Under the pieces are notes generated by a model. The model saw only the letters and a program-made list of their open reading frames with translations. It was not told the DNA's origin and made no database searches. From the NCBI GenBank assembly GCA_947444925.1, contig CANFBW010000002.1, positions 64,396 through 128,395 on the forward strand: a DNA stretch of 64,000 bases. The letters run 5' to 3'. Origin of the DNA: Flavobacteriales bacterium. Its GTDB lineage: Bacteria > Bacteroidota > Bacteroidia > Flavobacteriales_C > GCA-002722245. Position numbers and translations under genes: made by a program. The stretch's first letter is position 1; each line of letters opens with the position of its first letter. This document shows, piece by piece, positions 17,124 to 30,333 of the stretch.

Positions 17124-17208
17124 GGAGAGGTGTCAGAGTGGCCGAACGTGCAAGCTTGGAAAGTTTGTGTACCGCAAGGTACCGCGGGTTCGAATCCCGC
17201 CTTCTCCG
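17124..17208 (+). tRNA. tRNA-Ser (anticodon GGA), class II with long variable arm
   Basis: Acceptor stem ggagagg/cctctcc, D-arm gtcagagtggccgaa, anticodon stem caagc/gtttg with loop ttGGAaa, long variable arm, T-arm gggttcgaatccc. CCA not encoded. Confidence 0.85.
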
Positions 17209-17236
17209 CAGATAGATTGTGCAAAACAGTCTAAAA

Positions 17237-17270
17237 GCGTGTAAAATCAAGGTTTTACGCGCTTTTTTTA
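17237..17270 (+). terminator. Terminator downstream of tRNA-Ser
   Basis: gcgtgtaaaa...ttttacgcgc hairpin followed by T7. Confidence 0.5.
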
Positions 17271-17569: not shown

Positions 17570-18661
17570 TTAAACCAACTCCGACCTAAAAAGCAACTTC
17601 AAAAACTCACTCGATTCATAAGGTTTTTCCGAACAACAAATTGCCATTCCTTCCGCCAAAATTTCTTTGTTTATTTTTTTACCGATAAAAACAATTTTGC
17701 TCACTCTTTCTTCATTTCCCCAATTGCCAGCGGATTCGCTAACGTATTGATTGTTCACCGACTGAAAAACCAGCTTTTCTTCGAAATGCTTAAAGTTCAA
17801 AATCCCTTTCACCCTGTATAATTTGAAGGCCGCATCATTCAGGAGCATTCTCATCCAGATGTCAAATTTCAAAAGATCCAAAGGTTCGGAAAAAACAAAA
17901 CTACAGCTTGAAATATCGCTGTGCAATTGTGTTTTCTGATTGGGATTGAGTGCCGGGGATTTCTCTAGCGGCGAAGAAAAAGCGTTGAACGAAAGTCCGC
18001 CAAGTGAAGGCGTTTCAATTTTAGCATTTAAAATATTTTCTCTGCTGAAGGCTTTCAAATTTAAAAGATCAATTCCTTCTACCTTACCAAATGCAGACTC
18101 TCTGATGAGAGCCTGATTGTTCATTCTTTTGACAATATTGGTCACCGTTTCTTTTTGATATGCATCAACCTTATCTGTTTTATTGACCAGTACTACATCT
18201 GCTATTGCCACCTGTTTGCAGGCTTCTTCCTGATCTTCGAGTTGCTGTTCAATAAAACGGGCATCTACCAATGTAATTACAGCGTCCAATCGGAAAGCAC
18301 TTTGTATGGTTTCATCTGCCAAAAAACTCATAGCTACCGGAGCCGGATCAGCAATGCCTGTTGTTTCCACCACTAGGTGATGAATTCCCGGATGGGTTTT
18401 GATTAATTTTTGAAGAACAGTAATCAGTTCATCATTTAACTCACAACAGACGCAGCCGCTGGACAGCTCAAATATTCCGTCTTCAACACCCACCACTAAA
18501 TCGCTGTCGATGTTGATTTCCCCAAATTCATTTTCAATGACGGCGATTTTCTTTGTTGGATTTTGCCTGATTAATTCATTCAACAAAGTTGTTTTTCCGG
18601 CGCCGAGAAACCCTGTGAGAATGGTTACAGGAATTCTTTGATCTTGTTTGTTATTTTCCAT
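17570..18661 (-). CDS. COG0523 (CobW/YeiR/ZigA-type) G3E GTPase metallochaperone, paralog 1
   Basis: Walker [13 protein letters not shown], CxCC metal motif GCVCCEL, ETTGIADPAPV. C-terminal CobW_C-like segment. Confidence 0.8.
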   Translation of the reverse strand: MENNKQDQRIPVTILTGFLGAGKTTLLNELIRQNPTKKIAVIENEFGEINIDSDLVVGVEDGIFELSSGCVCCELNDELITVLQKLIKTHPGIHHLVVETTGIADPAPVAMSFLADETIQSAFRLDAVITLVDARFIEQQLEDQEEACKQVAIADVVLVNKTDKVDAYQKETVTNIVKRMNNQALIRESAFGKVEGIDLLNLKAFSRENILNAKIETPSLGGLSFNAFSSPLEKSPALNPNQKTQLHSDISSCSFVFSEPLDLLKFDIWMRMLLNDAAFKLYRVKGILNFKHFEEKLVFQSVNNQYVSESAGNWGNEERVSKIVFIGKKINKEILAEGMAICCSEKPYESSEFLKLLFRSELV

Positions 18662-19541
18662 AATCCAATAATTCTTTTCCTGAGTTTTTCATAAGTCCGA
18701 TAGCCCATTTAATAATGACAAGTGAACTGATAATACCTACGATAGCATCGAACGCAATCCAATCAAAATAATATCCGATGAGAAGGGAAACAATAGCGGC
18801 AATACTTGTGAGCATATCGGCCAGCACATGAAAATATGCCGCGCGAATATTGTGATCGCCGTGGTCATGATCATGATGAAGCACCTTTGCGCTAATTGCA
18901 TTTACAACCAATCCAATAATACCAACCAAAATAGCTTCCTTAAATTTAATTGTTTCGGGATGCATCAATCGCTCTATAGATTCCACCGACATTAGGAAAG
19001 CCACTATCAATAGTACTATAGCGCTGGTGTACCCTGCAAGCGATAAAATTTTAGCTGTTCCGTTTTTAAATTTTTCGTTTGCCTTGTGTCTTCGTGCAAA
19101 GTAATAGGCGATCCAGCAAAGTCCTATGGCAAAAACATGGGAAGCCATGTGCCAGCCATCGGCCAGTAAAGCCATTGAGTGTGAATGATAGCCAATGCCT
19201 ATTTCCAAAGCTACGGCCAGCACATTGATGAGTACTACTGTTTTTGCTTTTCGTTCGTGATCGTGATGATGGTGTGAAGGATTTTCACAAGAATGTTCAC
19301 TGCCCAAAGGCATTTCTATTTTTTGCCGGATATCTTTTTTGGTAACTTCCTCTAAAGGTTTTTCCAATAGATACCTGTTCATTTTACTGATATTTCCATT
19401 GGGAAAAACCATGATCACGGTAGTTCTGTTTTGACCGTTGGCATAACCCGTTTCAGAAATGAGAATGGAATGCTCCTCGTTGATGCGGAGTTTCCTTCTT
19501 ACCCATTCTTTTATTTTCTCTCTTAAATCTTCTGTTTTCAT
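18651..19541 (-). CDS. Minimal cation-diffusion-facilitator (CDF) transporter fused to an N-terminal ~90-aa domain of unknown function and a His-rich linker
   Basis: Six predicted TM helices with the CDF TM2 signature ALLADGWHMASH and TM5 HVLADMLTS. No C-terminal cytoplasmic domain. Linker HHHHDHERK and loop HHDHDHGDH. The N-terminal domain resembles the standalone ORF 21951-22214. Confidence 0.65.
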   Translation of the reverse strand: MKTEDLREKIKEWVRRKLRINEEHSILISETGYANGQNRTTVIMVFPNGNISKMNRYLLEKPLEEVTKKDIRQKIEMPLGSEHSCENPSHHHHDHERKAKTVVLINVLAVALEIGIGYHSHSMALLADGWHMASHVFAIGLCWIAYYFARRHKANEKFKNGTAKILSLAGYTSAIVLLIVAFLMSVESIERLMHPETIKFKEAILVGIIGLVVNAISAKVLHHDHDHGDHNIRAAYFHVLADMLTSIAAIVSLLIGYYFDWIAFDAIVGIISSLVIIKWAIGLMKNSGKELLDYGK

Positions 19542-19545
19542 AGAT

Positions 19546-20583
19546 TTACGCGCGAATATCCATTATTACTATTTCTCCGTTTTTGCTTCCGGTGGCCAGT
19601 TGTAAATCGTTGGGAGCCCACATTAATGACGTAAGTTCGTTGCCTATTTTCCATTTAACAACAGCTTTGTCTGAACTTTCGGGATACCACAATACTACTC
19701 TGCCCTCCACATCAGCAGAGGCCAGTAATTTTCCTTTGTGCTGAAATTGCAGGGCACTGATTTTAGTGGAGTGTCCCGACAGTGTTAATGGCGCTGTACC
19801 GATGGGAATTTTTCCAGCGAATTTCCACAGAATCAATTCAGCATCATTCGGAGTAGCGAGGAATTTGGCTTCACTGTCCCAAGCCATATTTCTTAATTTT
19901 CCGGGATAGCCCGACATTTGAAAATCGCTTTTAAGCAGATAAGGCAATGGCCACACATGAACACAATTGTCCTGCGTTCCTGCACAAATGAATTTTGAGT
20001 CGGGACTCCAGAAAAGAGAAATCATGGAATTTTGCCAAGGCAAAGTTTGATACGGTTCTTTTTCTTCCACCTTAATTATTTTCACTCCGCCATAGCAGGC
20101 ATAAGCCATTTCACTACTATCGGCTTTCCAGCATAAAGAAGCAATAGAACTGCCTGCTTCAATATACTCATGAATCAGTTCGCCCTGCGCCGACCATAAC
20201 CTCAAAAGTTTTCCTGACGCGCTGGCAAAATATTTTCCGTTGGGCGACCAGTTTACATGCTCCACCCAATGGCTACCGCCTTCCAGTTCTTTAATCGTAT
20301 TTCCTGCCTCGGTATCCCACAAGCGGATTTTTCCATCCTGTCCGCCGGAAAGAAATTTATTTTCCTGAGGAGAATGCGCCAAACAAATAATGCCTGAGGC
20401 ATGTGCTTCGGCGTGAGTGTAGGTTTGTGTGGTTTTAGTATTGATCACACAAATTTCTCCGGCAGCCGAAGAAGCGCAAAGCCACTGCGCATCTTTTGAC
20501 CAGCTCAAGCCGGTAATGTAATCCTTAAGCTGCGTGCGCCACACTTCCTGATTATTTTGCGTTTGTAATTCTTTGTTCATCAC
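19546..20583 (-). CDS. WD40 beta-propeller protein
   Basis: About seven repeats ending in hydrophobic-W-D/S ([36 protein letters not shown]). Confidence 0.75.
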
Positions 20584-21947
20584 AGTACAGCTTCTTTAGA
20601 GCGGATGAGGCAGGATTGAAATCCTTTCATGATTTCTTCGCGGTTTAGATTTTTACCAATAAACACCACTTGATTTTTTCGCTTTTCGCCGGGACGCCAT
20701 TTCCTGTCGGATTGCGCATCAAAAAGCATGTGTACTCCCTGAAAAACAAAACGCTCATCGTTGCCCTTAATATTTAAAATTCCCTTCATCCGGAAAATAT
20801 CAGTTCCCTTGTTTTGCAACAACCAGTTGATCCACTCATCCATTTTTTGAAGATCCAGTTCCCCTTCGGTGTCAATACCAACAGAAGACACGGCATTGTC
20901 GTGTTCATGCGTATGCTCAAATTCACGAAAAGAAAGAGGCCATACTAAATTTTCATTCTGAAAAATTTTCATTCCAAATTCATTGGGGTGGTGTTGTGTA
21001 TATAAAATATAGTATCCGTTTTTTTTCATCTTGAACTTATATTCATTCACCTTGTCATCCACCACAAGTTGATTCAGCGCGTTATTTGTTTTAAGAAATT
21101 TTTGTGGGCGGATGAGAAAAGACGCTTCAGAAAAAAGTTTGATGGCCAGTTTCTTTCCATTTTCAATTTCATTTTCCTCTGCCGAATCGACTTTAACAAT
21201 CGCAATATCCATAGTGGGATCAGGCCCTTCGTCCAACGCCAAAGAATATTCAAATTCATTCAATTCGTAAATAGCAGCCCATTCAAAAGGAACTTCTTCA
21301 TTTAAAATACCGGGATTGATTTCCACTTTGGCATTAAGGTCGAAGGCTTTTACATTTAGTATTTTGTCCATGTCGATATCCGCATCTTTGGTTTTGTAAA
21401 CCTTAGCTTGCGGGTTCATCCGTTGTATTTTATTTTCCAGTTTTTCAAGTTCGCCGGCACTCACCAAATCAATTTTATTGAGCAGAATAACATCGGCAAA
21501 AGCGATTTGCTCCTGACATTCGGAACTGTTGTCGATGTGTAACCACACGTGCTTTGTATCCACCACGGTGATGATCGCATCCAAACTCATCTGTTCTTTC
21601 ATTTCATCGTCTACCCAAAAAGTTTGTGCTACAGGCGCAGGATTGGCGAGTCCTGTAGTTTCTACAATGATGTAGTCAAATTTATCTTTGCGCTTCATGA
21701 GCTGTCCGAGAATACGGATAAGGTCGCCGCGCACCGTACAGCAAATACAGCCATTGTTCATTTCAAATATTTCTTCATCGGCACCTATCACCAATTCATG
21801 ATCAACACCCACTTCGCCAAATTCATTTTCAATCACCGCAATTTTTTTACCGTGATTTTCTTTTAATATCCTGTTCAGTAAAGTTGTTTTTCCAGAGCCT
21901 AAAAATCCTGTAAGGATAGTCACCGGAATGGTTTTGTTATTTTCCAT
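20580..21947 (-). CDS. COG0523 G3E GTPase metallochaperone, paralog 2 (long form with ~150-aa insertion)
   Basis: [30 protein letters not shown]. Insertion carries the His-rich patch EFEHTHEHD. 4-bp overlap with the WD40 gene. Confidence 0.8.
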
Positions 21948-21950
21948 ATA

Positions 21951-22214
21951 TCAATTTTTTTTAGTTTTTAATCCGTCAATATCCCATTTGCGCACGTAGG
22001 TGAGCGGCTTGCCGATTTTAAATTTCAGGGTTTCATTTTCTTTGTAAATTACAATGATAGTTTCCACATCGGGACAATTAGGTTCTGCGCATTTAAGCTC
22101 CGTCACTGTGATGATGACATCATCTGATAAAAGCAATTTAGTCCTTGTCCATTCCTTGACAAGTTTCTTGATTTTACTATTATCTATATCGTTGGGGTTT
22201 TTTAAAAGTGCCAT
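21951..22214 (-). CDS. Small protein (87 aa), standalone copy of the unknown domain fused to the CDF
   Basis: KLVKEWTRTKL...ETIIVIYKENETLKFKIGKPLTYVRKWDI aligns with the CDF N-terminus KIKEWVRRKL...TTVIMVFPNGNISKMNRYLLEKPLEEVTKKDI. Confidence 0.45.
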   Translation of the reverse strand: MALLKNPNDIDNSKIKKLVKEWTRTKLLLSDDVIITVTELKCAEPNCPDVETIIVIYKENETLKFKIGKPLTYVRKWDIDGLKTKKN

Positions 22215-22216
22215 AA

Positions 22217-22987
22217 TTAAAACAACATTTTTTCAATAACACTAACCATTAACATACATAAAACACCAAGACTAATTACCACTCCCTGCACCAACTGATA
22301 TTGTACTTTAGAAGTGTTGTGTAACTCAGGAATCAAATCTGTTGAAGCGATATAAATAAATCCCCCGGCTGCAATAGGTAAAAGATAATTGACCGGAAGC
22401 GCCATAAAAGAACCCAGTAGCAATACCGCCACCACTCCAGCAACACAGGTAAGCGAACAAAGGAAATTATACCACACCGCCTGTTTGGGCGAATAGCCGC
22501 CGTGAATCAACGCGCCTATATCACCCACTTCCTGCGGAATTTCATGAATGATAATGGCGAGCGTTGTGGTCACGCCCAACGCCGGACTGGCCATAAAACT
22601 TCCGGCAATCAAAGTACCATCAATGAAATTGTGAACGGCATCGCCCACCAGATTCATTTTTGCCATAGGTTGTGGTTTTGTGACAGAATGCAGCACAGGC
22701 GTATAAAACTGATGCTTCCAACGAATTATTTTTTCAAGAAAAAAGAACAATAATATTCCTCCCACTGTAACCACCAACACAGAATGCATATCGCCAATGC
22801 GTGTGATGGCATCAGGAATAAGATGCAAAAACGCATCGCCCAGCAACACACCCACTGCGAGACTCATTAAAAACTGCAAAGAATTTTTAAGGGTTTTCTC
22901 CTTGATAAATAAAGCAAATGCTCCTATCAAAGAAACGAAGCTCACTATGAGTGCGGCCAAAACCGAATTTATCCAAATTACATCCAT
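22217..22987 (-). CDS. zupT: ZIP-family metal permease (ZupT-like)
   Basis: HEIPQEVGDIGALI and HNFIDGTLIA signatures, eight TM helices. Confidence 0.8.
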   Translation of the reverse strand: MDVIWINSVLAALIVSFVSLIGAFALFIKEKTLKNSLQFLMSLAVGVLLGDAFLHLIPDAITRIGDMHSVLVVTVGGILLFFFLEKIIRWKHQFYTPVLHSVTKPQPMAKMNLVGDAVHNFIDGTLIAGSFMASPALGVTTTLAIIIHEIPQEVGDIGALIHGGYSPKQAVWYNFLCSLTCVAGVVAVLLLGSFMALPVNYLLPIAAGGFIYIASTDLIPELHNTSKVQYQLVQGVVISLGVLCMLMVSVIEKMLF

Positions 22988-22996
22988 ATCACTTTT

Positions 22997-24184
22997 TTAT
23001 AAATTCCATGTGTCTTCAAAAGAAATTCCTGTCTGCATCGCTATAATTTCAGAATCTGTACAAATACATTCTTGTAAACCTGAAGTGATTTGCTCCACGT
23101 CCATATCCTGACCGATGATTACCAGTTCATTTATCCTGTCACCCCATGTTTCATCCATACGAGCAAGAATAGAAGCTTCATCGCCATTGTGGTTTTTCCA
23201 TTCTTCCCTTGGTTTGGAAATCCACCATACACCTGCCTTTTCGGGACTCACAGAACCACCTGCTTGATTCCAGCTAAAAGCATCCTCAGGGCGAGAAGCC
23301 ATCCAAAACATTCCTTTACTGCGCAAAACATTTTCAGGCCAGTAATCATTTACATACTCTAAAAATCTTGCAGGATGAAAAGGTTTTTTCTCTCTGAAAA
23401 CAAAAGAACTTAATCCATATTCTTCTGTTTCCGGTGTGTGTGGTTTTTCTAATTCATTGATCCAACTGAGCGCAGCCGATGACTTTTCAAAATCGAAGAG
23501 TCGAGTATTAATAATTTCATCTAAAGGAACTTTGCCAAAAGAAGATTCAATGATTTTTGCAGAAGAATTGAGCTTGCGAAGGATTGCTTTTAATTCTGCC
23601 AAACGTTGCGGACGAACTAAATCGGATTTATTTATAACAATGACGTTGGCAAATTCTATCTGATCGACCAAAAGATTGACTATTGTTCTATCGTCGTCCT
23701 GATCGTTATTTAATTTTCTTTCATAAATCGTTTCTAAGCTTTGAAAATCTTCTGCGAAATTAAACGCATCTACAACAGTGACCAGAGTATCTAAAGAACT
23801 GAATTTAGAAAGATCAATTCCTGATGGCTCATCTATATAAGAAAAAGTTTGTGCAACAGGTAAAGGTTCCGAGATGCCAGTGGATTCAATCACCAAATAA
23901 TCAAACCTGTTTTCCATCGCTAATTTTTCTACTTCTTTCAAAAGGTCTTCACGCAGGGTACAGCAAATACATCCGTTCGACATCTCTACGAGTTTTTCTT
24001 CCGTGCGCGATAGCACATTTTCGTTTTTTACAGTAGAGGCATCTACATTAACTTCACTCATGTCATTGACGATCACTGCCACTTTCATTCCTTCCTTGTT
24101 GTGCAAAATGTGATTGAGTAAAGTGGTTTTTCCTGCACCAAGAAATCCACTTAAAACTGTTACAGGTAATTTTTTCATTTTCAT
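22997..24184 (-). CDS. COG0523 G3E GTPase metallochaperone, paralog 3
   Basis: [31 protein letters not shown]-terminal CobW_C ([12 protein letters not shown]). Confidence 0.8.
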
Positions 24185-24209
24185 ATTTTTATTTCTCTAT
24201 TCTATATAA

Positions 24210-24236
24210 GGGCGGAACCGGGGATTGGTTCCGCCC
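24210..24236 (-). terminator. GC-rich hairpin between the OMP gene and the COG0523 operon
   Basis: gggcggaacc ggggatt ggttccgccc forms a perfect 10-bp stem. Flanking U-tract on the minus strand is weak. Confidence 0.4.
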
Positions 24237-24259
24237 CAATTGAGGGGAGAGGAGGGATT

Positions 24260-24997
24260 TTATTTTAGTTTATATGCCAATCCTAATGAACCATTGATCC
24301 AACTCATTTGCTGATTGGTGACCAATCTTCCTGCGGTATTGCTCCTGTTTTCATTACTGATGGCAACTCCCGGCGTGCTGAAATAATCGCACATTAATGA
24401 AAGTGCCATTTTTTCGGAAAAGGAATATTTAAATCCTAAACCCAGCTGCCAGCCAAAAGCCGAAGCTGTTGAACTCAATTGCGTGAAGGCCGGATTATCT
24501 TCCAGCTGAACTGAAACTTCAGGAGTGGAGATGCTTTGCGCCAATCCGCCTAAAGCACGGGCTTCTATACTGAATTTATTGAAAGGCAATGAAAAATATG
24601 GCCCTACCAAAAAGTTCAATGTTCTGTATCTGCTGTTGGTGATAACAGTAGATTCGTCAACACCAAAGGCATCGGTATAGCTGTCTCCTAATTTGGTAGC
24701 ATCGTCCTTAGTTAATCCACCGTGATCGGAAAAATTTAGTACGCCTCCGACTCCTATATTTTTGTGGAAATAATAAGCTCCGTCAAATCCAATATTGAAT
24801 CCTGTTTTCGCAAATCCGGAAGTATTGTTCCAGCTGCCAAACTCACCTAAATCAGTGGAAGCAAAATTCCCAAGCGGAGCTGATACTCCTCCTGAAAGGC
24901 CAAGAAAAAAATTGCCTGTGCTTTCTTCCTGCGCACAGATGGTTGATGTAAGCAGCACTATTGCTGTGAGTACACTGAATATATTTTTTGTTTTCAT
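24260..24997 (-). CDS. Outer-membrane beta-barrel protein (porin-like), signal peptide
   Basis: Signal peptide, alternating amphipathic strands, C-terminal ...LGLAYKLK with aromatic/hydrophobic terminus. Confidence 0.5.
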   Translation of the reverse strand: MKTKNIFSVLTAIVLLTSTICAQEESTGNFFLGLSGGVSAPLGNFASTDLGEFGSWNNTSGFAKTGFNIGFDGAYYFHKNIGVGGVLNFSDHGGLTKDDATKLGDSYTDAFGVDESTVITNSRYRTLNFLVGPYFSLPFNKFSIEARALGGLAQSISTPEVSVQLEDNPAFTQLSSTASAFGWQLGLGFKYSFSEKMALSLMCDYFSTPGVAISNENRSNTAGRLVTNQQMSWINGSLGLAYKLK

Positions 24998-25024: not shown

Positions 25025-25702
25025 TTATTGAATAGTTACATTGAATCCTACATCTAAATCGGTGGAGCCCGGCGTGTAAGTGCCATTTTTAGAATTGGGC
25101 TGGTGTCTCAGCATCAATCTCAACCAGCCTGTACTGTTGGCTCCTGTGACAAAACTTGATTGTAAGCCCAAAGGATAAACCTGCGGATTAGAATCATGAT
25201 CTGTAATACTCACAGTAAGATTCAATGCGTTGGAACTCACTGTTGCAGTGGTAGAAGCATTGGTAGGAATAGGATCGGGAAGCACATCTCCGGAAGTATA
25301 AGGAATTACAAAAGCACTCATGCTTGGCAGTGATTGATAAAAAAACAAATGATAGTTTGCCCTTTCTTTTATTTCATTGGAAACATTGAAAACCGGACTC
25401 TGTGATTTATCCAGCAGCACCAGCTCGGCAGTATAAGTAGCATTGGCTTTCAGTGTAAGGTCGACTTTGCTCACATCTACAGGTAAAGGATAGCCATTAG
25501 CATCTAGCAGCTGTTCCCACGTGGCGGTATCTTTATCAAAAGGAGCCAGTGTGTTGGTAACAATTACAGAAACCGTTGTGAGGGCTTCATTGGCGATAGT
25601 AGGCGCAACTACCTGCTCCTCCTTGTTACAGGCTTGTATGGTGAAAGCCACCAATACTACAGCCAGTAATTTTGTTTTTGAAATGTACTTCATTTTAATC
25701 AT
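25025..25702 (-). CDS. Lipoprotein of unknown function encoded directly downstream of the TonB-dependent receptor
   Basis: Lipobox ...FTIQAC NKEE. Ser/Thr-rich beta-type sequence. Confidence 0.5.
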   Translation of the reverse strand: MIKMKYISKTKLLAVVLVAFTIQACNKEEQVVAPTIANEALTTVSVIVTNTLAPFDKDTATWEQLLDANGYPLPVDVSKVDLTLKANATYTAELVLLDKSQSPVFNVSNEIKERANYHLFFYQSLPSMSAFVIPYTSGDVLPDPIPTNASTTATVSSNALNLTVSITDHDSNPQVYPLGLQSSFVTGANSTGWLRLMLRHQPNSKNGTYTPGSTDLDVGFNVTIQ

Positions 25703-25712
25703 CGTTTAAGGT

Positions 25713-28082
25713 TTAATTATTATTGGTATTGTGTTTAGAAAATTCAAAAGGGACTTTTATTCTCAGCACGAAATTTCTGCCTAAATCATCAGTGAAATAG
25801 CGAAAACGGTTGAGATAATCCCTGTAAGATTTGTTGAGCATATTGTTCACCGAAAAATCAACGGAAACAACTTGCTTGCCTATAAGGAAATCAAAGTTGA
25901 TATTGGCACCTAACAAAACATATCCCGCCGGAGGAAGCGCAAAGTCGCTGTTGGCAGGAACATTATTTTGTTTTGCCACATTCAGGTTGCTGATGCCCAG
26001 CGATACTTTTTGGAGTTTTCCGATTTTTCCGATTTCATATTTTATAGAATTATCTATTCTATTAGACGGTGCATAAATCAGGAAATCATGAATGCTGTTA
26101 TTGTAAGCATAGATATAAGATGTTTTTGTGGTAAAAGTAATTTTGTGAAGTGTATATTCTGCTTTCACATCAACTCCGGTAAATACAACATTTGCTTGTG
26201 TATAGCTGAAAGCAGGGAATGACCCGCGAATGGTATGAATAGCAATTAAATCGGGTTTGAGATAAGTGTAATTGATAATGATGTTATGGTAAGCACCAAA
26301 ATTCAACACAAAATTTTTGTTGGAATATTTTATTTCCGAATTGAAATTATACGCGTGTTCAGGAACGAGATTAGAATTTCCTATTTCATACGAAGCTGCA
26401 CTTTGATGAACTCCCTTAGAAAACAGTTCATTCACAGTAGGCGCTTTCCATGCCGTGCTAAAATTTGCACTTATGCTCATTTTCTCTGTGAGTCGGTATT
26501 CGGCTCCTGCAGCGATAGTGAAATTTTCGTAGTGGTAAGTGGGGGTAATGACCTGCGCGGTAGTGTTATCAAGCATATAAACTCTCATCCATCTGTAATC
26601 GTAGCGGATACCGCCTTCTATACTCCACCTGTTTTTCTGCCATTTCTCAATCCATAAAATTCCGCCGCCATAGTTCCTGAAATTAGGAATCAAAAATTCG
26701 TACTTCCGTACATTTCCCTGTGTAATTCCATTAAATCCGATGCTTCCCTTTATGTTTTTAAAAGATTTATGTTCCCAAATACCATCGAGTGTTTGGGTTT
26801 GTATTCTCAAATAAAGTTCGGGATTCAGCTTGCCTGTAAAAGGGATATATCCATATTCCGATCTTTCGTTTTGCTGGGAAGCAAAGGTTAATTCAAACCT
26901 TCCCAGTTTTTCAGATTTGTAATATGCTTTTGCTTTAAACAAATTGTGTTGAACCAATTGATAAGGACGATCGATAGTATAAGTGAATACATCGGGAGTA
27001 AGGGGCTTATCTCTTTTAATTGCCGACAGAATATCACTTACCGCTTCGGCATGTGTGCCGGAAAAAATTCCCAGCTGAGTAAAAAAGCTACTGTAATAAA
27101 GTTCCGCTCCGTAATTCTTTTTAGTGTAGGCTAAAGTGGCGGAATAATTAATTTCTTTAGAGGCTGTATTATCCATATAATAATAAGCCGTTCTGCTATT
27201 TCCTGAGCGTTTATAAGTTCCCTGTACACGCCAGCTTAATCCCGAAAATTTTTTACCAAAAGCTCCATCCAACATTGCAGAAGATGTTCCCGCATATCCG
27301 TTGCTCATGCCAACTAAATTTATTTCTCCGCCAATGCCGGGATTAATACGCATTTTTTTAGGCTCCACCAGAATAACTCCCCCGATCGCATCAGAACCGT
27401 AACGGATACTTGCTGCACCTTTCACCACAATTAGATTAGTAGCGATGAAGGGATCAATTTCGGGAGCATGCTCCGACCCCCATTGCTGACCCTCCTGTCT
27501 TATTCCATTATTCAATATCAATATCCGATTGCTGTGTAATCCGTGGATAACAGGTTTTGAAATAGAAGGGCCAGTTTGAATCGTATAAACACCGGCAAGA
27601 CTTTTCAGAGATTCACCTAAAGAAAGTCCTCTTGTTTTGTCGAGTTCCTTTCCTTTGATTTGTTCCTGTGGTTGTATCAACGGCACACTATCATTACCTC
27701 TTCTTTTTACAATCAATATTTCATGAATCGAACAAGTATCGAAATGCATGGTTACATCCTGTGAATGATTCCCCTGTATGTGCAAAGTGCACGTAAACGT
27801 TTTGTGCCCCACATGACTATACTGTACCGTATATGAACCCGCGCAAATAAAATTTAAATGATACACTCCACTATCATTAGTGGCCATACCTTTATTGAGT
27901 TCTTTAATTTCCACAGAAACAGATGATAAATTTTGATGGGTTTCGCCACTGTACACTTTCCCGCTTAGAGTAAAAGAGCATTTGTCTGTATTCACCTGAG
28001 CGTATAAATGCCCATAACAAAACAGCATTGACATGCTTGCCGTATAAAAAAACTTCATGAAATAATTAGAATTTAAAACCAA
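25713..28082 (-). CDS. TonB-dependent receptor with N-terminal carboxypeptidase-regulatory-like domain
   Basis: CarbopepD_reg-like N-terminus (SGKVYSGETHQ...NDSGVYHL). Plug domain (VYTIQTGPSISKPVIHGLHSNRILILNNGIRQEGQQWG). Long beta-barrel with C-terminal aromatic residue. Confidence 0.85.
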   Translation of the reverse strand: MVLNSNYFMKFFYTASMSMLFCYGHLYAQVNTDKCSFTLSGKVYSGETHQNLSSVSVEIKELNKGMATNDSGVYHLNFICAGSYTVQYSHVGHKTFTCTLHIQGNHSQDVTMHFDTCSIHEILIVKRRGNDSVPLIQPQEQIKGKELDKTRGLSLGESLKSLAGVYTIQTGPSISKPVIHGLHSNRILILNNGIRQEGQQWGSEHAPEIDPFIATNLIVVKGAASIRYGSDAIGGVILVEPKKMRINPGIGGEINLVGMSNGYAGTSSAMLDGAFGKKFSGLSWRVQGTYKRSGNSRTAYYYMDNTASKEINYSATLAYTKKNYGAELYYSSFFTQLGIFSGTHAEAVSDILSAIKRDKPLTPDVFTYTIDRPYQLVQHNLFKAKAYYKSEKLGRFELTFASQQNERSEYGYIPFTGKLNPELYLRIQTQTLDGIWEHKSFKNIKGSIGFNGITQGNVRKYEFLIPNFRNYGGGILWIEKWQKNRWSIEGGIRYDYRWMRVYMLDNTTAQVITPTYHYENFTIAAGAEYRLTEKMSISANFSTAWKAPTVNELFSKGVHQSAASYEIGNSNLVPEHAYNFNSEIKYSNKNFVLNFGAYHNIIINYTYLKPDLIAIHTIRGSFPAFSYTQANVVFTGVDVKAEYTLHKITFTTKTSYIYAYNNSIHDFLIYAPSNRIDNSIKYEIGKIGKLQKVSLGISNLNVAKQNNVPANSDFALPPAGYVLLGANINFDFLIGKQVVSVDFSVNNMLNKSYRDYLNRFRYFTDDLGRNFVLRIKVPFEFSKHNTNNN

Positions 28083-28123: not shown

Positions 28124-28477
28124 TTAAATAGTATTTGCTGCGGGAGGAGATCTTCCTGAGGATTCAGGAGTGATTTTTTCTGCTTTAAGCAGTAAAAGGG
28201 AATAATTGTTATAAGTATAAAAAACCGGACTTTTTACAAAAACTAAATCATTGTAATACAATTCATGTGAAAGATTCAGAGAACATATTTTACATTTCTC
28301 ATCTGCTTTACAGATTTCTTGTTCGGGATTATCATGCTTTTTTTGATGCGCTGAATGCTGCGTGTGATTGTGTAAAAACCCCGATACAACCTGTATAAAA
28401 AGAAGGTTGAAAAGGAGAACACCCGATAAAACGATATTTAAAATTGCTCGTATTTTCACAAATTTTTGTTGCAACAA
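28124..28477 (-). CDS. Small His/Cys-rich membrane protein (questionable)
   Basis: TTG start. One TM helix followed by HNHTQHSAHQKKHD and CKADEKCKICS. Could be spurious. Confidence 0.3.
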   Translation of the reverse strand: MLQQKFVKIRAILNIVLSGVLLFNLLFIQVVSGFLHNHTQHSAHQKKHDNPEQEICKADEKCKICSLNLSHELYYNDLVFVKSPVFYTYNNYSLLLLKAEKITPESSGRSPPAANTI

Positions 28478-28562
28478 CGATTCAAATGTATAAATATATT
28501 TTTAATGCAACAATGTTTCACGTAAACTTAACATAGACTACGGAAAATAATATCTTTGCAGA

Positions 28563-28991
28563 ATGGCACATTTAAAGAAAGAAAATATTGAGCACCTTCT
28601 TCGGGAACATCAGCTAAAATTAACACCCCAAAGAGTGGCTGTGCTAAAAGTATTCTTAGAAAGAGACAAAGTGATGAGTCTGGCTTCCCTCAACAAATAC
28701 TTAGGGAAAGATTTTGACAGGATTACTTTGTACCGCACATTGAATGCCTTTGAAGAAAAAGGATTGATCCATAAAATCCCTGATAAAGAAGTTGCTTCTT
28801 ATGCGCTTTGTAAACATGACTCCATCAGCCATTCACACGAAGACAACCACGCTCATTTCAAATGCACCAGTTGTTCCCTTACTGTTTGCCTCGATGAAGT
28901 TCAGATTCCACAAATAGTTCTTCCAAAGAAATTCAAGGCTCAAAAATTCAATTTTATAGTGGAAGGGCTTTGCGAGGACTGTAAAAAGTAA
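28563..28991 (+). CDS. Fur-family metalloregulator (Zur-like by context)
   Basis: LKLTPQRVAVLKVF DNA-binding helix. HSHEDNHAHFKCTSC...CEDC metal sites. Divergent from the TBDR operon. Confidence 0.8.
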   Translation: MAHLKKENIEHLLREHQLKLTPQRVAVLKVFLERDKVMSLASLNKYLGKDFDRITLYRTLNAFEEKGLIHKIPDKEVASYALCKHDSISHSHEDNHAHFKCTSCSLTVCLDEVQIPQIVLPKKFKAQKFNFIVEGLCEDCKK

Positions 28992-29300: not shown

Positions 29301-29855
29301 TTGAATCATATTTTGCCTATTGACGAGGAAAGTTGGGCCATGCTGTTGCCGCACCTGAAATCGCAGCAAATGGAGTGCGGTGATTTTTTGTGTCGCAGCG
29401 GTGAAATTTGCAAATCCATTGCGTTCATTCAAAGTGGTTCCATGCGTGCCTATTATACTTCGGACGATTTGTTAGAGACCAATTTATTGCTCTGTTCGCA
29501 AAATGAATTTATTTGTGATTACGAAAGTTTTATTACGCAGTCGCCTGCGAAATACAATGTTGAAGCCATCGAAAGAACAAATGTGATAGTGTTGTCGAAG
29601 TCGGTTTTGGATGCCTTGTACGCGGAATCTTTTTATTGGAATTGCTTCGGGCGGAAAGTGGCCGAAGGGATATATTTGAGCTCGAAAGCGCGTGCGGAAG
29701 AACTGCTGTTTTATGGACCTGAAGAGCGTTACCTGCGCTTGATGCGCAAACACCCCGAATATTTTCAAAAGTATGCGCTGAAACATTTGGCGGGCTACTT
29801 GGGGATTGCCCCGCAATCGCTCAGTAGAATTCGTGCACGACTTGTGCAGCATTAA
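29301..29855 (+). CDS. Crp/Fnr-family transcriptional regulator
   Basis: cNMP-binding-like N-terminus. C-terminal HTH (LKHLAGYLGIAPQSLSRIRARL). Confidence 0.75.
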   Translation: MNHILPIDEESWAMLLPHLKSQQMECGDFLCRSGEICKSIAFIQSGSMRAYYTSDDLLETNLLLCSQNEFICDYESFITQSPAKYNVEAIERTNVIVLSKSVLDALYAESFYWNCFGRKVAEGIYLSSKARAEELLFYGPEERYLRLMRKHPEYFQKYALKHLAGYLGIAPQSLSRIRARLVQH

Positions 29856-29904
29856 TTAACTTGGGTTAAGCAGTGCACTCATCGCAGTTTATTATTTTTG
29901 TTGC

Positions 29905-30333
29905 ATGATAATTCAAATTTCTGGAATACTATTATTTGTAATTTTTGTCCTGATTTCGGGCATTCACTTTTACTGGGCGTTCGGCGGCAAATGGGGCGTT
30001 GATGCAGCATTGCCTAGCAATGGTGAAGGAGAACGCGTGTTGAAGCCTCGACAAATTGACACCTTTGCTGTTGCTGCCGTGTTTGCTGGAATTGGTGTTT
30101 TTTATTTGGTGATGGGTACTGTAGTGCTTATTGATTTGCCTTTATGGATGCCCAAGTATTTGGGGTGGATTTTTCCTTTTGTTTTTTTAATCAGAGCGGT
30201 CGGTGACTTTAAATATTTGGGAATTTTTAAAAAAGAAAAGAGGAGTTTATTTGCCCAGCTGGACACTAAATATTATTCTCCTCTTTGTTTGTTCATCACT
30301 TTTTTAGCAGTGCTTGTTCAAGTTTTTCGATGA
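29905..30333 (+). CDS. DUF3995-like small membrane protein
   Basis: N-terminus HFYWAFGGKWGVDAALP is characteristic. 4 TM helices. Confidence 0.5.
   Translation: MIIQISGILLFVIFVLISGIHFYWAFGGKWGVDAALPSNGEGERVLKPRQIDTFAVAAVFAGIGVFYLVMGTVVLIDLPLWMPKYLGWIFPFVFLIRAVGDFKYLGIFKKEKRSLFAQLDTKYYSPLCLFITFLAVLVQVFR

What the first reader, a model, noticed from the sequence alone, without database searches (positions are those of the whole stretch)
17570..24184. Seven-gene metal-homeostasis operon: three COG0523 GTPase paralogs interleaved with a WD40 propeller, a ZIP importer, a domain-fused mini-CDF and a small DUF protein
Seven minus-strand genes run from 17570 to 24184 with 4-11-bp overlaps or <=10-bp gaps, so a single transcript is likely. 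Three distinct COG0523 G3E GTPases (363, 455 and 395 aa) carry a conserved CxCC motif each. They are encoded together with a ZIP uptake permease and a CDF efflux-type carrier in the same operon, which is unexpected for a simple zinc-starvation response. A seven-bladed WD40 protein embedded in a bacterial metallochaperone operon is not a described arrangement. Established knowledge: COG0523 proteins (ZigA, YeiR, YciC, ZagA, Zng1) are Zur-regulated zinc metallochaperones, and WD40 propellers are protein-interaction scaffolds. Inference: this may be a multi-component zinc-trafficking machine in which the WD40 protein scaffolds several chaperones.
Basis: partly seen in the sequence, partly recalled or inferred. 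Interest (0 to 1): 0.75.

Follow-up and report, generated by a model that had tools for sequence, protein, structure and literature searches.

The report
Metal-starvation operon with GTPase–propeller module
This is a metal-starvation (most likely zinc) gene cluster from an uncultured Bacteroidota bacterium; its GTPase–WD40 pairing was already noted in 2009, but it also contains an uncharacterised small two-cysteine protein that accompanies that pair in many phyla and is a testable candidate partner for a metallochaperone whose partners are unknown.

Summary
The seven genes and their domain calls are real: three COG0523 GTPases with CxCC, a ZIP, a CDF and a WD40. Four details are wrong. The propeller has eight blades, not seven. 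The "DUF" protein has no family. The unit is larger: four upstream same-strand genes (including a TonB-dependent receptor) and a divergent Fur-family regulator with two operator-like boxes. COG0523–WD40 clustering, including predicted Zur control, was published in 2009. The WD40 does not go with all three GTPases. In about 80 of 88 loci from many phyla it follows one orthologous long COG0523 (52–62% identical, usually overlapping). New here: the 87-aa protein belongs to an unannotated family (about 1,400 clusters, invariant Cys-x4-Cys-Pro, no solved structural relative). It sits beside that pair in 52 of 88 loci. A cysteine-less copy forms the N-terminal domain of the CDF, which lacks the C-terminal domain. 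Neighbours elsewhere are ZnuA, TonB-dependent receptors, NicO, CDF and Fur. Best reading: a Fur-family (probably Zur) metal-limitation regulon containing a three-protein metal-delivery module. Its mechanism is inferred, not shown.

The parts
28563..28991 (+). Divergent Fur-family regulator (142 aa); metal specificity unassigned
   Evidence: Pfam FUR, E 5e-12. NCBIfam Zur, Fur and PerR models all score far below their cut-offs. A Fur-family gene adjoins the module in L006, the P0002 contig, L010, L011, L089 and L090.
28470..28520 (.). Two operator-like boxes. Box A is 28506-28520 (TGCAACAATGTTTCA). Box B is 28470-28484 (TGCAACAACGATTCA). They flank a Bacteroidota-type -7 element, TACATTTG (28483-28490, minus strand).
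   Evidence: Two 23-nt direct repeats lie 36 nt apart. They have 1 and 2 mismatches to TGCAAC-N3-GTTGCA. That exact motif occurs at only 5 sites in 88 loci, all in Bacteroidota and including sites just upstream of ZIP and NicO genes.
28124..28477 (-). Small membrane protein (up to 117 aa; true start uncertain) with one TM segment, a His-rich stretch and CKxCxxC
   Evidence: ORF and hydropathy analysis. No family assigned.
25713..28082 (-). TonB-dependent outer-membrane receptor (789 aa)
   Evidence: Pfam CarbopepD_reg_2, Plug and TonB_dep_Rec_b-barrel. It has weak similarity to ZnuD and heme receptors, all below cut-off.
25025..25702 (-). Probable lipoprotein (225 aa, ...AFTIQAC), no family
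   Evidence: Conserved in L006.
24260..24997 (-). Small outer-membrane beta-barrel protein (245 aa)
   Evidence: Pfam OMP_b-brl, E 1e-10. An N-terminal hydrophobic segment fits a signal peptide.
24209..24237 (-). G+C-rich 11-bp hairpin in the 75-nt gap before the first GTPase gene. It could be an internal terminator, attenuator or stabiliser.
   Evidence: RNA fold gives dG -26.3 kcal/mol, z -4.8, with 0 of 200 shuffles folding as well. There is only a weak U tract. No TAnnTTTG element lies between it and the ATG.
22997..24184 (-). COG0523 GTPase G3 (395 aa), ZigA-like; CICC at aa 72-75
   Evidence: cobW + CobW_C. NCBIfam ZigA scores 563 bits against a cut-off of 600. Orthologs at 55-61% identity occur in L009, L010 and L049.
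22217..22987 (-). ZIP-family permease (256 aa)
   Evidence: Pfam Zip, E 8e-45. ZupT model scores 56 bits, below cut-off. ZIP orthologs adjoin the module in L001/L012 and L070.
21951..22214 (-). 87-aa protein of an unannotated family; invariant Cys42 and Cys47 (C-x4-C-P, window 22068-22091) in a beta-hairpin loop
20580..21947 (-). COG0523 GTPase G2 (455 aa), the WD40-linked ortholog group; CICC at aa 67-70, a family-less insert of about 135 aa (window 20928-21335) and HTHEH at aa 345
   Evidence: cobW + CobW_C. Orthologs are 52-62% identical across phyla, against 41% and 36% to G1 and G3. It lies immediately upstream of the WD40 gene in about 80 of 88 loci. The insert has no Pfam match.
19546..20583 (-). 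Cytoplasmic eight-bladed WD40 propeller (344-345 aa; probable ATG start at 20580)
   Evidence: Pfam WD40. The AF2 model has pLDDT 93.6. Eight-bladed structures fit best. No signal peptide. At least 554 reference genomes hold a relative.
18651..19541 (-). CDF transporter without a C-terminal domain (296 aa). The N-terminal domain (19287-19541) is homologous to the 87-aa protein but lacks both cysteines. It is followed by HHHH and the membrane domain (18666-19250).
   Evidence: Cation_efflux at aa 102-292. DmeF model 230.6 bits (cut-off 250); ZitB 121 bits. The N-terminal domain matches the small protein by BLASTP (E 6e-7), by hhalign against the family profile (probability 96.3%, E 2e-9) and by HMM on the L006/L007 ortholog (E 6e-9).
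17570..18661 (-). COG0523 GTPase G1 (363 aa), lineage-specific; overlaps the CDF gene by 11 nt; CVCC at aa 70-73
   Evidence: cobW + CobW_C. The CDF-COG0523 pairing is kept in the 61%-identity relative. A COG0523-CDF pair also lies next to the WD40 in L024. There is no clear ortholog elsewhere.

Best explanation
The locus is a metal-limitation regulon, most likely for zinc, of an uncultured Bacteroidota bacterium. It is probably repressed by the divergent Fur-family protein through two operator-like boxes that flank the -7 promoter element.

Proposed parts and roles (all inferred from family membership and context):
1. An outer-membrane uptake set: TonB-dependent receptor, lipoprotein and small beta-barrel.
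2. A ZIP inner-membrane importer.
3. Three COG0523 metallochaperone GTPases with different partners.
- G3 is a ZigA-like stand-alone chaperone.
- G2 belongs to an ortholog group that is almost always followed, usually with overlapping stop and start codons, by an eight-bladed cytoplasmic WD40 protein. It is often preceded by an 87-aa two-cysteine protein.
- G1 is translationally coupled to a DmeF-like CDF.

For G2 I propose a three-protein metal-delivery module by analogy with other G3E systems (UreE/UreG/UreDF, HypA/HypB). The small protein would hand metal to or from the CxCC site of the GTPase. The WD40 would be the docking platform or nucleotide-state regulator that connects the GTPase to its client.

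The CDF has lost the usual cytoplasmic domain and carries a cysteine-less copy of the small-protein fold instead. That copy would dock the chaperone machinery at the transporter. The CDF could then remove competing Co/Ni, or pass metal outwards to periplasmic proteins.

Shown here: gene content, orthology, conservation of adjacency, the domain homology, the fold models and the operator motif. Inferred: the identity of the metal, all physical interactions, and the direction and purpose of transport.
For: Conservation of the layout: the same 11-gene layout occurs in a 94%-identity relative. In a 61%-identity relative the Fur-family gene lies directly beside ZIP-87aa-COG0523(455)-WD40-CDF-COG0523(359).

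G2-WD40 adjacency: a G2-type COG0523 ends 0-50 nt before the WD40 gene in about 80 of 88 loci. These come from Bacteroidota, Poribacteria, Acidobacteriota, Chloroflexota, Planctomycetota, Verrucomicrobiota, Proteobacteria and Thaumarchaeota. An identical 13-nt overlap is seen in six distant lineages. G2 orthologs are 52-62% identical, against 36-41% to the in-operon paralogs.

Small protein: it lies next to the pair in 52 of 88 loci. Three family members chosen independently of the WD40 all sit beside a long COG0523 and a ~350-aa gene; that gene is a recorded WD40 in two loci and matches the window WD40 by tblastn (35.7% identity) in the third. Cys42 and Cys47 are invariant in 122 sequences.

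CDF: its N-terminal domain is homologous to the small protein.

Metal context: the unbiased neighbour census found ZnuA 6, TonB-dependent receptors 5, FUR 5, NicO 5, CDF 4 and extra cobW 8. Haas 2009 predicted Zur sites upstream of znuCBA-COG0523-5-WD40 operons. G3 scores 563 bits against the ZigA model.

Operator: TGCAAC-N3-GTTGCA occurs at 5 exact sites in 88 loci, all in Bacteroidota, including sites just upstream of ZIP and NicO. Near-matches lie upstream of the ZigA-like and Fur-family genes of L010.
Against: No experiment supports any interaction, metal specificity or regulation here.
- The Fur-family protein cannot be assigned to Zur, Fur or PerR by sequence.
- The window's two boxes are imperfect (1 and 2 mismatches). 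At up to 3 mismatches the motif is not enriched in the window.
- The hairpin at 24209-24237 may terminate transcription before the seven genes. No promoter motif was found after it.
- The small protein is absent from Thaumarchaeota, Planctomycetota, Verrucomicrobiota and some Bacteroidota loci, so the module works without it in many lineages.
- The CDF is most like Co/Ni exporters (DmeF). NicO, HupE/UreJ and CbtAB neighbours elsewhere fit Co/Ni as well as Zn.
- The WD40 shows no conserved Cys/His cluster that would indicate metal binding.
Confidence: 0.6

Rival explanations
1. One reading: the WD40 protein is a common scaffold that holds all three COG0523 GTPases together in one zinc-trafficking machine.
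For: All are encoded in one tight gene string. WD40 propellers are multivalent interaction platforms (established knowledge). Clusters with three COG0523 paralogs recur: L091 has cobW362-cobW382-small-cobW455-WD40.
Against: In most of the 88 loci the WD40 has only the G2-type GTPase next to it. G1 has no ortholog outside close relatives, and G3 is only sometimes nearby. The extra paralogs in other clusters are not orthologous to G1.
Confidence: 0.1
2. The module handles cobalt or nickel (for example for B12 or Ni/Co enzymes) rather than zinc, and the regulator senses that metal.
For: The CDF scores best against the Co/Ni exporter DmeF: 230.6 bits against 121 for ZitB. In Nitrosopumilaceae the pair lies beside CbtA/CbtB and a precorrin-2-dehydrogenase-like gene. 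NicO and HupE/UreJ are frequent neighbours. Haas 2009 also lists HoxN next to subgroup 5.
Against: No cobalamin or NiCo riboswitch is found in the window or in L001, L003, L010 or L011. ZnuA is the commonest transporter neighbour. Zur sites are predicted upstream of alpha-proteobacterial COG0523-5-WD40 operons. A ZigA-like paralog and a ZIP lie in the same operon. No B12 biosynthesis genes adjoin the window cluster.
Confidence: 0.15
3. The WD40 protein is not a client adaptor. It is a regulator of the GTPase cycle of G2 (acting like a GAP, GEF or GDI, as G-beta or RCC1-type propellers do for other GTPases). The small protein is the true client or metal store.
For: Strict one-to-one adjacency with conserved translational coupling suggests a stoichiometric GTPase-propeller complex. 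COG0523 proteins have low intrinsic GTPase activity and unknown activators (PMC11672702).
Against: There is no direct evidence. The family-conserved residues are mostly structural WD40 positions. The tools used here cannot distinguish this model from the adaptor model.
Confidence: 0.25
4. The propeller is an AztD-like periplasmic zinc chaperone that feeds an uptake system.
For: AztD is a beta-propeller. Its genes also neighbour ZnuA, Fur and CobW genes (PMC6689063).
Against: There is no signal peptide or hydrophobic N-terminus. The sequence is a canonical WD40 repeat protein; its best PDB sequence matches are WD40 proteins, and AztD is not among the top 60 shown. The gene is translationally coupled to a cytoplasmic GTPase.
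Confidence: 0.02

Closest known systems
COG0523 'subfamily 5'-WD40 gene clusters (Haas et al. 2009, BMC Genomics 10:470), e.g. the Zur-site operons znuCBA-COG0523-5-WD40(-sapB) of Bradyrhizobium japonicum, Nitrobacter and Rhodopseudomonas palustris
   Same: A COG0523 GTPase is directly followed by a WD40 gene. The surroundings hold metal importers (ZnuABC, HoxN/NicO) and a Fur-family regulator, with predicted control by zinc limitation.
   Different: The importers here are ZIP and a TonB-dependent receptor, not ZnuABC. Two further COG0523 paralogs and a CDF lie in the same string. The small two-cysteine protein and its copy on the CDF were not described in that paper. I did not test whether the alpha-proteobacterial WD40 proteins belong to the same ortholog family.
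Eukaryotic ZNG1 (CBWD)-METAP1 zinc metallochaperone system
   Same: It is a COG0523 GTPase with a CxCC site, induced by zinc limitation, that uses a dedicated protein-protein contact to reach its client. Haas 2009 places most eukaryotic COG0523 proteins in the same subfamily as the WD40-linked prokaryotic ones.
   Different: G2 lacks the N-terminal CPxLxP METAP1-binding motif, which the 2024 review says is absent from bacterial homologues. The partner here is a WD40 propeller, not a zinc-finger domain. The client is unknown. Phylogenetic placement of G2 with ZNG1 was not tested here.
Accessory systems of other G3E GTPases: UreE/UreG/UreD-UreF (urease) and HypA/HypB (hydrogenase)
   Same: Each combines a G3E GTPase with a small metal-binding partner and a scaffold protein, encoded together. 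This is the template for the proposed three-part module.
   Different: There is no sequence or fold relationship between the small protein or the WD40 and UreE, UreF, UreD or HypA. The resemblance is one of logic only.
ZigA / ZagA (YciC) Zur-regulated COG0523 chaperones
   Same: G3 aligns end to end with the ZigA model (563 bits) and lies in a cluster next to a Fur-family regulator.
   Different: The score is below the curated equivalog cut-off of 600. No histidine-utilisation or folE genes are nearby. G1 and G2 are different subtypes.
Soluble metallochaperone plus homologous domain on its transporter (CopZ/Atx1 and the N-terminal domains of CopA-type ATPases)
   Same: A small stand-alone protein and an N-terminal transporter domain share one fold and are encoded in the same operon.
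   Different: The fold is different and the transporter is a CDF. The transporter copy has lost both cysteines, so it cannot be a like-for-like metal acceptor.
CDF transporters lacking the cytoplasmic C-terminal domain (e.g. Maricaulis maris MmCDF3; from my own knowledge, not checked here) and DmeF-type Co/Ni exporters
   Same: A six-helix Cation_efflux membrane domain with no C-terminal domain. Best family match is DmeF.
   Different: It has an N-terminal domain of the orphan small-protein family and is translationally coupled to a COG0523 GTPase. It scores below the DmeF cut-off (230.6 against 250).

Membership tests
COG0523 (G3E P-loop GTPases) | N-terminal cobW/G3E GTPase domain with Walker A GxxGxGKT | tested here: met
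   PF02492 E-values of 4e-53, 1e-63 and 1e-56 for G1, G2 and G3. GFLG(A/S)GKT is present in all three.
COG0523 (G3E P-loop GTPases) | N(G/S)CxCC metal-binding motif between G2 and G3 loops | tested here: met
   SGCVCC, NGCICC and NGCICC. C67, C69 and C70 are invariant in alignment A6.
COG0523 (G3E P-loop GTPases) | CobW_C C-terminal domain | tested here: met
   PF07683 E-values of 2e-17, 1e-24 and 1e-24.
COG0523 (G3E P-loop GTPases) | Metal-dependent GTP hydrolysis and metal transfer | not testable with these tools
   Biochemical assay needed.
ZigA equivalog (NCBIfam NF038288), for G3 | Score at or above the curated cut-off (600 bits) | tested here: not met
   563.2 bits with full-length alignment 6-385 / 1-380. 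This is a near miss, so I call it 'ZigA-like'.
Haas subfamily 5 / ZNG1-type COG0523, for G2 | Genomic clustering with a WD40 gene and metal importers | tested here: met
Haas subfamily 5 / ZNG1-type COG0523, for G2 | Phylogenetic grouping with eukaryotic ZNG1/CBWD | not tested
Only YjiA is in the PDB.
Haas subfamily 5 / ZNG1-type COG0523, for G2 | N-terminal CPxLxP METAP1-binding motif (eukaryotic ZNG1) | tested here: not met
   G2 starts [14 protein letters not shown], going directly into the P-loop strand. The review states that the motif is absent from bacterial homologues.
WD40 repeat beta-propeller | Multiple WD40 repeats forming a closed propeller | tested here: met
   PF00400 E 5e-37. 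The model has pLDDT 93.6 and pTM 0.90. It has eight blades.
AztD periplasmic zinc chaperone | Export signal and periplasmic location | tested here: not met
   No hydrophobic N-terminus.
Cation diffusion facilitator (CDF) | Six-helix Cation_efflux membrane domain with HxxxH/D (TM2) and HxxxD (TM5) site | tested here: met
   PF01545 E 2e-35; TIGR01297 174 bits, above its cut-off of 82. The motifs WHMASH and FHVLAD can be read in the sequence.
Cation diffusion facilitator (CDF) | Cytoplasmic C-terminal (ZT_dimer) domain | tested here: not met
   The protein ends 4 residues after the membrane-domain profile, and no ZT_dimer hit is found.
DmeF Co/Ni exporter equivalog (NF033827) | Score at or above 250 bits | tested here: not met
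   230.6 bits. The shortfall is plausibly due to the missing C-terminal domain.
ZIP family | Zip Pfam domain | tested here: met
   PF02535 E 8e-45. The ZupT equivalog is not met: 56 bits against 252.
Zur (zinc uptake regulator) | Fur-family fold | tested here: met
   PF01475 E 5e-12.
Zur (zinc uptake regulator) | Assignment to Zur rather than Fur, PerR or another type | tested here: inconclusive
   PerR 47.5, Zur 39.6 and Fur 39.5 bits, all far below their cut-offs.
Zur (zinc uptake regulator) | Operator upstream of zinc-uptake genes | tested here: inconclusive
   A clade-specific inverted repeat, TGCAAC-N3-GTTGCA, lies upstream of ZIP, NicO, ZigA-like and Fur-family genes in Bacteroidota loci. 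The window has two imperfect copies. Binding was not tested.

The most novel reading that the evidence does not exclude
The 87-aa Cys-x4-Cys protein, the long COG0523 GTPase and the eight-bladed WD40 form a dedicated three-component metal-insertion machine. It is conserved from Bacteroidota to Chloroflexota, and as a two-component core in archaea. It would be the prokaryotic counterpart and possible ancestor of the eukaryotic ZNG1 system. The same small fold has been recruited as a docking domain on a CDF, so that a nucleotide-driven chaperone is coupled directly to a membrane transporter.
Probability: 0.3. Interest if true: 0.8.

Novelty: new variant of a known kind. Interest (0 to 1): 0.55.

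Why it matters
The partners and clients of bacterial COG0523 metallochaperones remain largely unknown. The 2024 Chemical Reviews survey names only CobW and Nha3 as exceptions, and neither 'WD40' nor 'propeller' occurs in the part of it that is held, which includes the COG0523 section. This locus, and the roughly 90 related loci examined, give two concrete and conserved candidate partners for one COG0523 ortholog group: an eight-bladed WD40 and a small two-cysteine protein from a family that has no annotation at all. They also show a transporter that carries a copy of the small protein's fold. Each prediction can be tested with standard interaction, metal-binding and gene-expression experiments. 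Some organisms carrying the COG0523-WD40 pair are genetically tractable, for example Bradyrhizobium and Rhodopseudomonas from the lists in Haas 2009. If the module works as proposed, it would extend the 'small chaperone + GTPase + scaffold' logic of urease and hydrogenase maturation to zinc allocation.

Tried and rejected
1. The single-sequence indexed search with the 87-aa protein found only its 98% twin. A profile built from ORFs that I extracted from the loci was needed.
2. The first 30-sequence WD40 alignment was too diverse for the genome scan. An 11-sequence alignment worked.
3. The palindrome TTGTTGCAACAA was rejected as the operator. At up to 2 mismatches it is not enriched in the window: 14 matches against 11.2 expected. 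The 6-3-6 repeat TGCAAC-N3-GTTGCA, found by comparing Bacteroidota loci, fits better.
5. The AFDB library was unavailable.
6. The G2 insert has no Pfam match even at E 10.
7. Edmonds et al. 2021 (PMC8360895), which contains a COG0523 neighbourhood analysis, is not held. I cannot exclude that it mentions the WD40 or the small protein.
8. The idea that the G2 insert and the small protein always co-occur was rejected. Thaumarchaeota and several other lineages have the insert without the small protein.
9. The AztD identity of the propeller was rejected.
10. Riboswitch control was rejected.

Full report
OBSERVATION. The seven minus-strand ORFs lie at exactly the stated coordinates. Their junctions are +9, +2, +3, -4, +4 and -11 nt. 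Pfam and NCBIfam confirm every domain call. The 363-, 455- and 395-aa products have cobW + CobW_C. The 296-aa product has Cation_efflux, the 345-aa product WD40 repeats and the 256-aa product Zip. Each GTPase has a Walker A motif and a CxCC motif. Several details in the finding are wrong or incomplete, as set out below.

THE UNIT IS LARGER. Four more genes lie upstream on the same strand. They encode a small His-rich membrane protein (28124-28477), a TonB-dependent receptor (25713-28082), a family-less lipoprotein (25025-25702) and a small outer-membrane beta-barrel (24260-24997). A Fur-family regulator (28563-28991) is transcribed divergently. A metagenomic relative whose WD40 is 94% identical has the same 11-gene layout plus the regulator. 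In a 61%-identity relative the Fur-family gene sits directly beside ZIP-87aa-COG0523(455)-WD40-CDF(294)-COG0523(359). A strong hairpin (11 bp, dG -26.3 kcal/mol, z -4.8) lies at 24209-24237, in the 75-nt gap before the first GTPase gene. It has only a weak U tract, and I found no Bacteroidota -7 motif after it. So it is open whether the seven genes are a separate transcript, a read-through continuation, or both.

REGULATION. The 85-bp region between the regulator gene and the cluster holds two 23-nt direct repeats 36 nt apart. Comparison with other Bacteroidota loci revealed a 6-3-6 inverted repeat, TGCAAC-N3-GTTGCA. The exact motif occurs at only 5 sites in 88 fetched loci (about 1.5 Mb), where my rough estimate is that about 0.1 would be expected by chance. 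All five sites are in Bacteroidota. They include sites just upstream of a ZIP gene (L001/L012) and a NicO gene (L011). L010 has near-matches upstream of its own Fur-family gene and 10 nt upstream of its ZigA-like gene. The window's two copies have 1 and 2 mismatches. They flank a TACATTTG element, which fits the Bacteroidota -7 consensus TAnnTTTG (that consensus is from my own knowledge). This geometry suits a repressor. The motif is not enriched elsewhere in the window. The regulator cannot be assigned to Zur, Fur or PerR by sequence. No riboswitch of any kind is present.

THE WD40 PROTEIN. It is cytoplasmic, with no hydrophobic N-terminus. It is a canonical WD40 and not an AztD-type periplasmic propeller. 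The AlphaFold model is very confident (pLDDT 93.6, pTM 0.90) and shows 31 strands and eight sequence repeats. Eight-bladed structures superpose at TMq 0.80-0.87 and rmsd 2.6-3.0; these are Rsa4/NLE1, ODA16, TBL1XR1 and the designer proteins Tako8 and Ika8. Seven-bladed structures reach only TMq 0.60-0.69 at rmsd 4-6. The protein therefore has eight blades, not seven. It belongs to a sharply defined family of stand-alone proteins of about 345 aa (30-46% identity over about 95% of the length). At least 554 reference genomes from many phyla hold a relative.

THE CONSERVED CORE. I ran a tblastn census with all the window proteins against 88 loci. In about 80 loci a COG0523 most similar to the 455-aa paralog (G2) ends 0-50 nt before the WD40 start on the same strand. 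The exceptions are five Planctomycetota/Verrucomicrobiota loci and one truncated contig; a few other contigs are cut inside the GTPase gene. An identical 13-nt overlap of the two genes recurs in six distant lineages: Thaumarchaeota, Planctomycetota, Poribacteria, Ktedonobacter and two uncultured lineages. G2 orthologs are 52-62% identical across these phyla, against 41% and 36% to G1 and G3 in the same operon. Most G2 orthologs carry an insert of about 135 aa that matches no family. So the WD40 is specifically the partner of one ortholog group and not a general scaffold. ZigA-like G3 orthologs (55-61% identity) lie nearby in some loci. G1 has no clear ortholog beyond close relatives.

PRIOR KNOWLEDGE. 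Haas et al. 2009 stated that prokaryotic COG0523 subfamily 5 clusters with WD40 genes, ZnuABC and creatininase-like genes. That subfamily also holds most eukaryotic members. Their supplement lists predicted Zur-site operons znuCBA-COG0523-5-WD40(-sapB) in Bradyrhizobium, Nitrobacter and Rhodopseudomonas, and notes HoxN transporters as neighbours. I found no functional work on the WD40 partner. The 2024 Chemical Reviews survey has no occurrence of 'WD40' or 'propeller' in the part held, which includes its COG0523 section. It says that bacterial clients are largely unknown. Only three held papers contain both 'COG0523' and 'WD40'. Edmonds et al. 2021 could not be read.

THE CDF. It has a DmeF-like membrane domain (230.6 bits against a cut-off of 250; ZitB 121 bits). 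It has no cytoplasmic C-terminal domain. Its first 85 or so residues are homologous to the small protein: BLASTP E 6e-7, hhalign against the family profile at probability 96.3% and E 2e-9, and an HMM hit on the L006/L007 ortholog at E 6e-9. This copy lacks both cysteines and is followed by an HHHH stretch. The gene overlaps G1 by 11 nt. A CDF next to a COG0523 near the WD40 also occurs in a verrucomicrobial locus, and a 55%-identical CDF lies near the WD40 in a Bacteroidia locus.

NEIGHBOURHOOD. I ran a Pfam census of 150 flanking ORFs from 22 phylogenetically diverse loci, leaving out G2 and the WD40 themselves. The counts were cobW 8, ZnuA 6, TonB-dependent receptors 5, FUR 5, NicO 5, Cation_efflux 4, HupE_UreJ_2 3, DUF6702 3, ArsR 3, HMA 3, ABC-3 2 and Zip 2. 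So importers, a CDF and several COG0523 paralogs together form a recurrent pattern and are not an anomaly.

INTERPRETATION. The best-supported reading is a Fur-family-controlled metal-limitation regulon. Four observations favour zinc: the ZigA-like paralog, the ZIP, the prevalence of ZnuA among neighbours elsewhere, and the published Zur-site predictions. Cobalt or nickel remains a live alternative because of the DmeF-like CDF and the NicO, HupE and CbtAB neighbours. Within the regulon, small protein + G2 + WD40 is proposed as a three-part delivery module, by analogy with UreE/UreG/UreDF and HypA/HypB. The CDF N-terminal domain would be a docking copy of the small-protein fold. All interactions, the metal involved and the purpose of the CDF are inferences.

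VERDICT. The finding is a real and well-conserved system whose headline feature was already published. It gains interest from a previously unannotated third component and its fusion to a transporter. I class it as a new variant of a known kind, with interest 0.55.

Noticed in passing
window 17124-17209 (+) and 17233-17266: A tRNA-Ser(GGA) gene converges on the end of the operon. It is followed by a 15-bp terminator-like hairpin with a T run. About 360 nt of non-coding sequence separate it from the stop codon of the last GTPase gene.
   Followed up: partly
window 28124-28477 (-): The first gene of the cluster encodes a small single-pass membrane protein. It has a His-rich stretch (HNHTQHSAHQKKH) and a CKADEKCKIC motif. 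It has no family, only a weak LIC10965-like hit.
   Followed up: partly
window 25025-25702 (-): A 225-aa lipoprotein lies between the TonB-dependent receptor and the beta-barrel. It matches no family and is conserved in L006. It may be a surface metal-capture partner of the receptor.
   Followed up: no
window 29301-30333 (+): A cNMP-binding (Crp-like) protein and a DUF3995 membrane protein follow the Fur-family gene. The same trio is conserved in L006.
   Followed up: no
L010 5284-8422 and 11010-12862; L011 5865-7065: In two other Bacteroidota, a thioredoxin-like [2Fe-2S] ferredoxin-like protein occupies the slot just upstream of G2 instead of the small Cys protein, and it is preceded by NicO. 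A three-gene set HMA-DUF6702-HupE_UreJ_2 occurs twice, once on each side of the G2-WD40 pair.
   Followed up: partly
L003/L004 5593-9709 (Nitrosopumilaceae): In Thaumarchaeota the COG0523-WD40 pair is flanked by divergent CbtB/CbtA (predicted cobalt transporter) and a precorrin-2-dehydrogenase-like gene. DtxR-like, NikR-like and ZnuABC genes lie within 8 kb. This hints that the metal served may differ between lineages.
   Followed up: partly
[not shown]
   Followed up: partly
L091 2545-7706: A genome from another lineage (GCA_028285035.1) also strings three COG0523 paralogs with the small protein and the WD40: cobW362-cobW382-small86-cobW455-WD40. The two extra paralogs are not orthologous to the window's G1 and G3.
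   Followed up: partly
L005 5355-6125 (Gemmataceae): A creatininase-family gene lies near the short (323-aa, insert-less) COG0523-WD40 pair. This matches the COG1402 association noted by Haas 2009.
   Followed up: no
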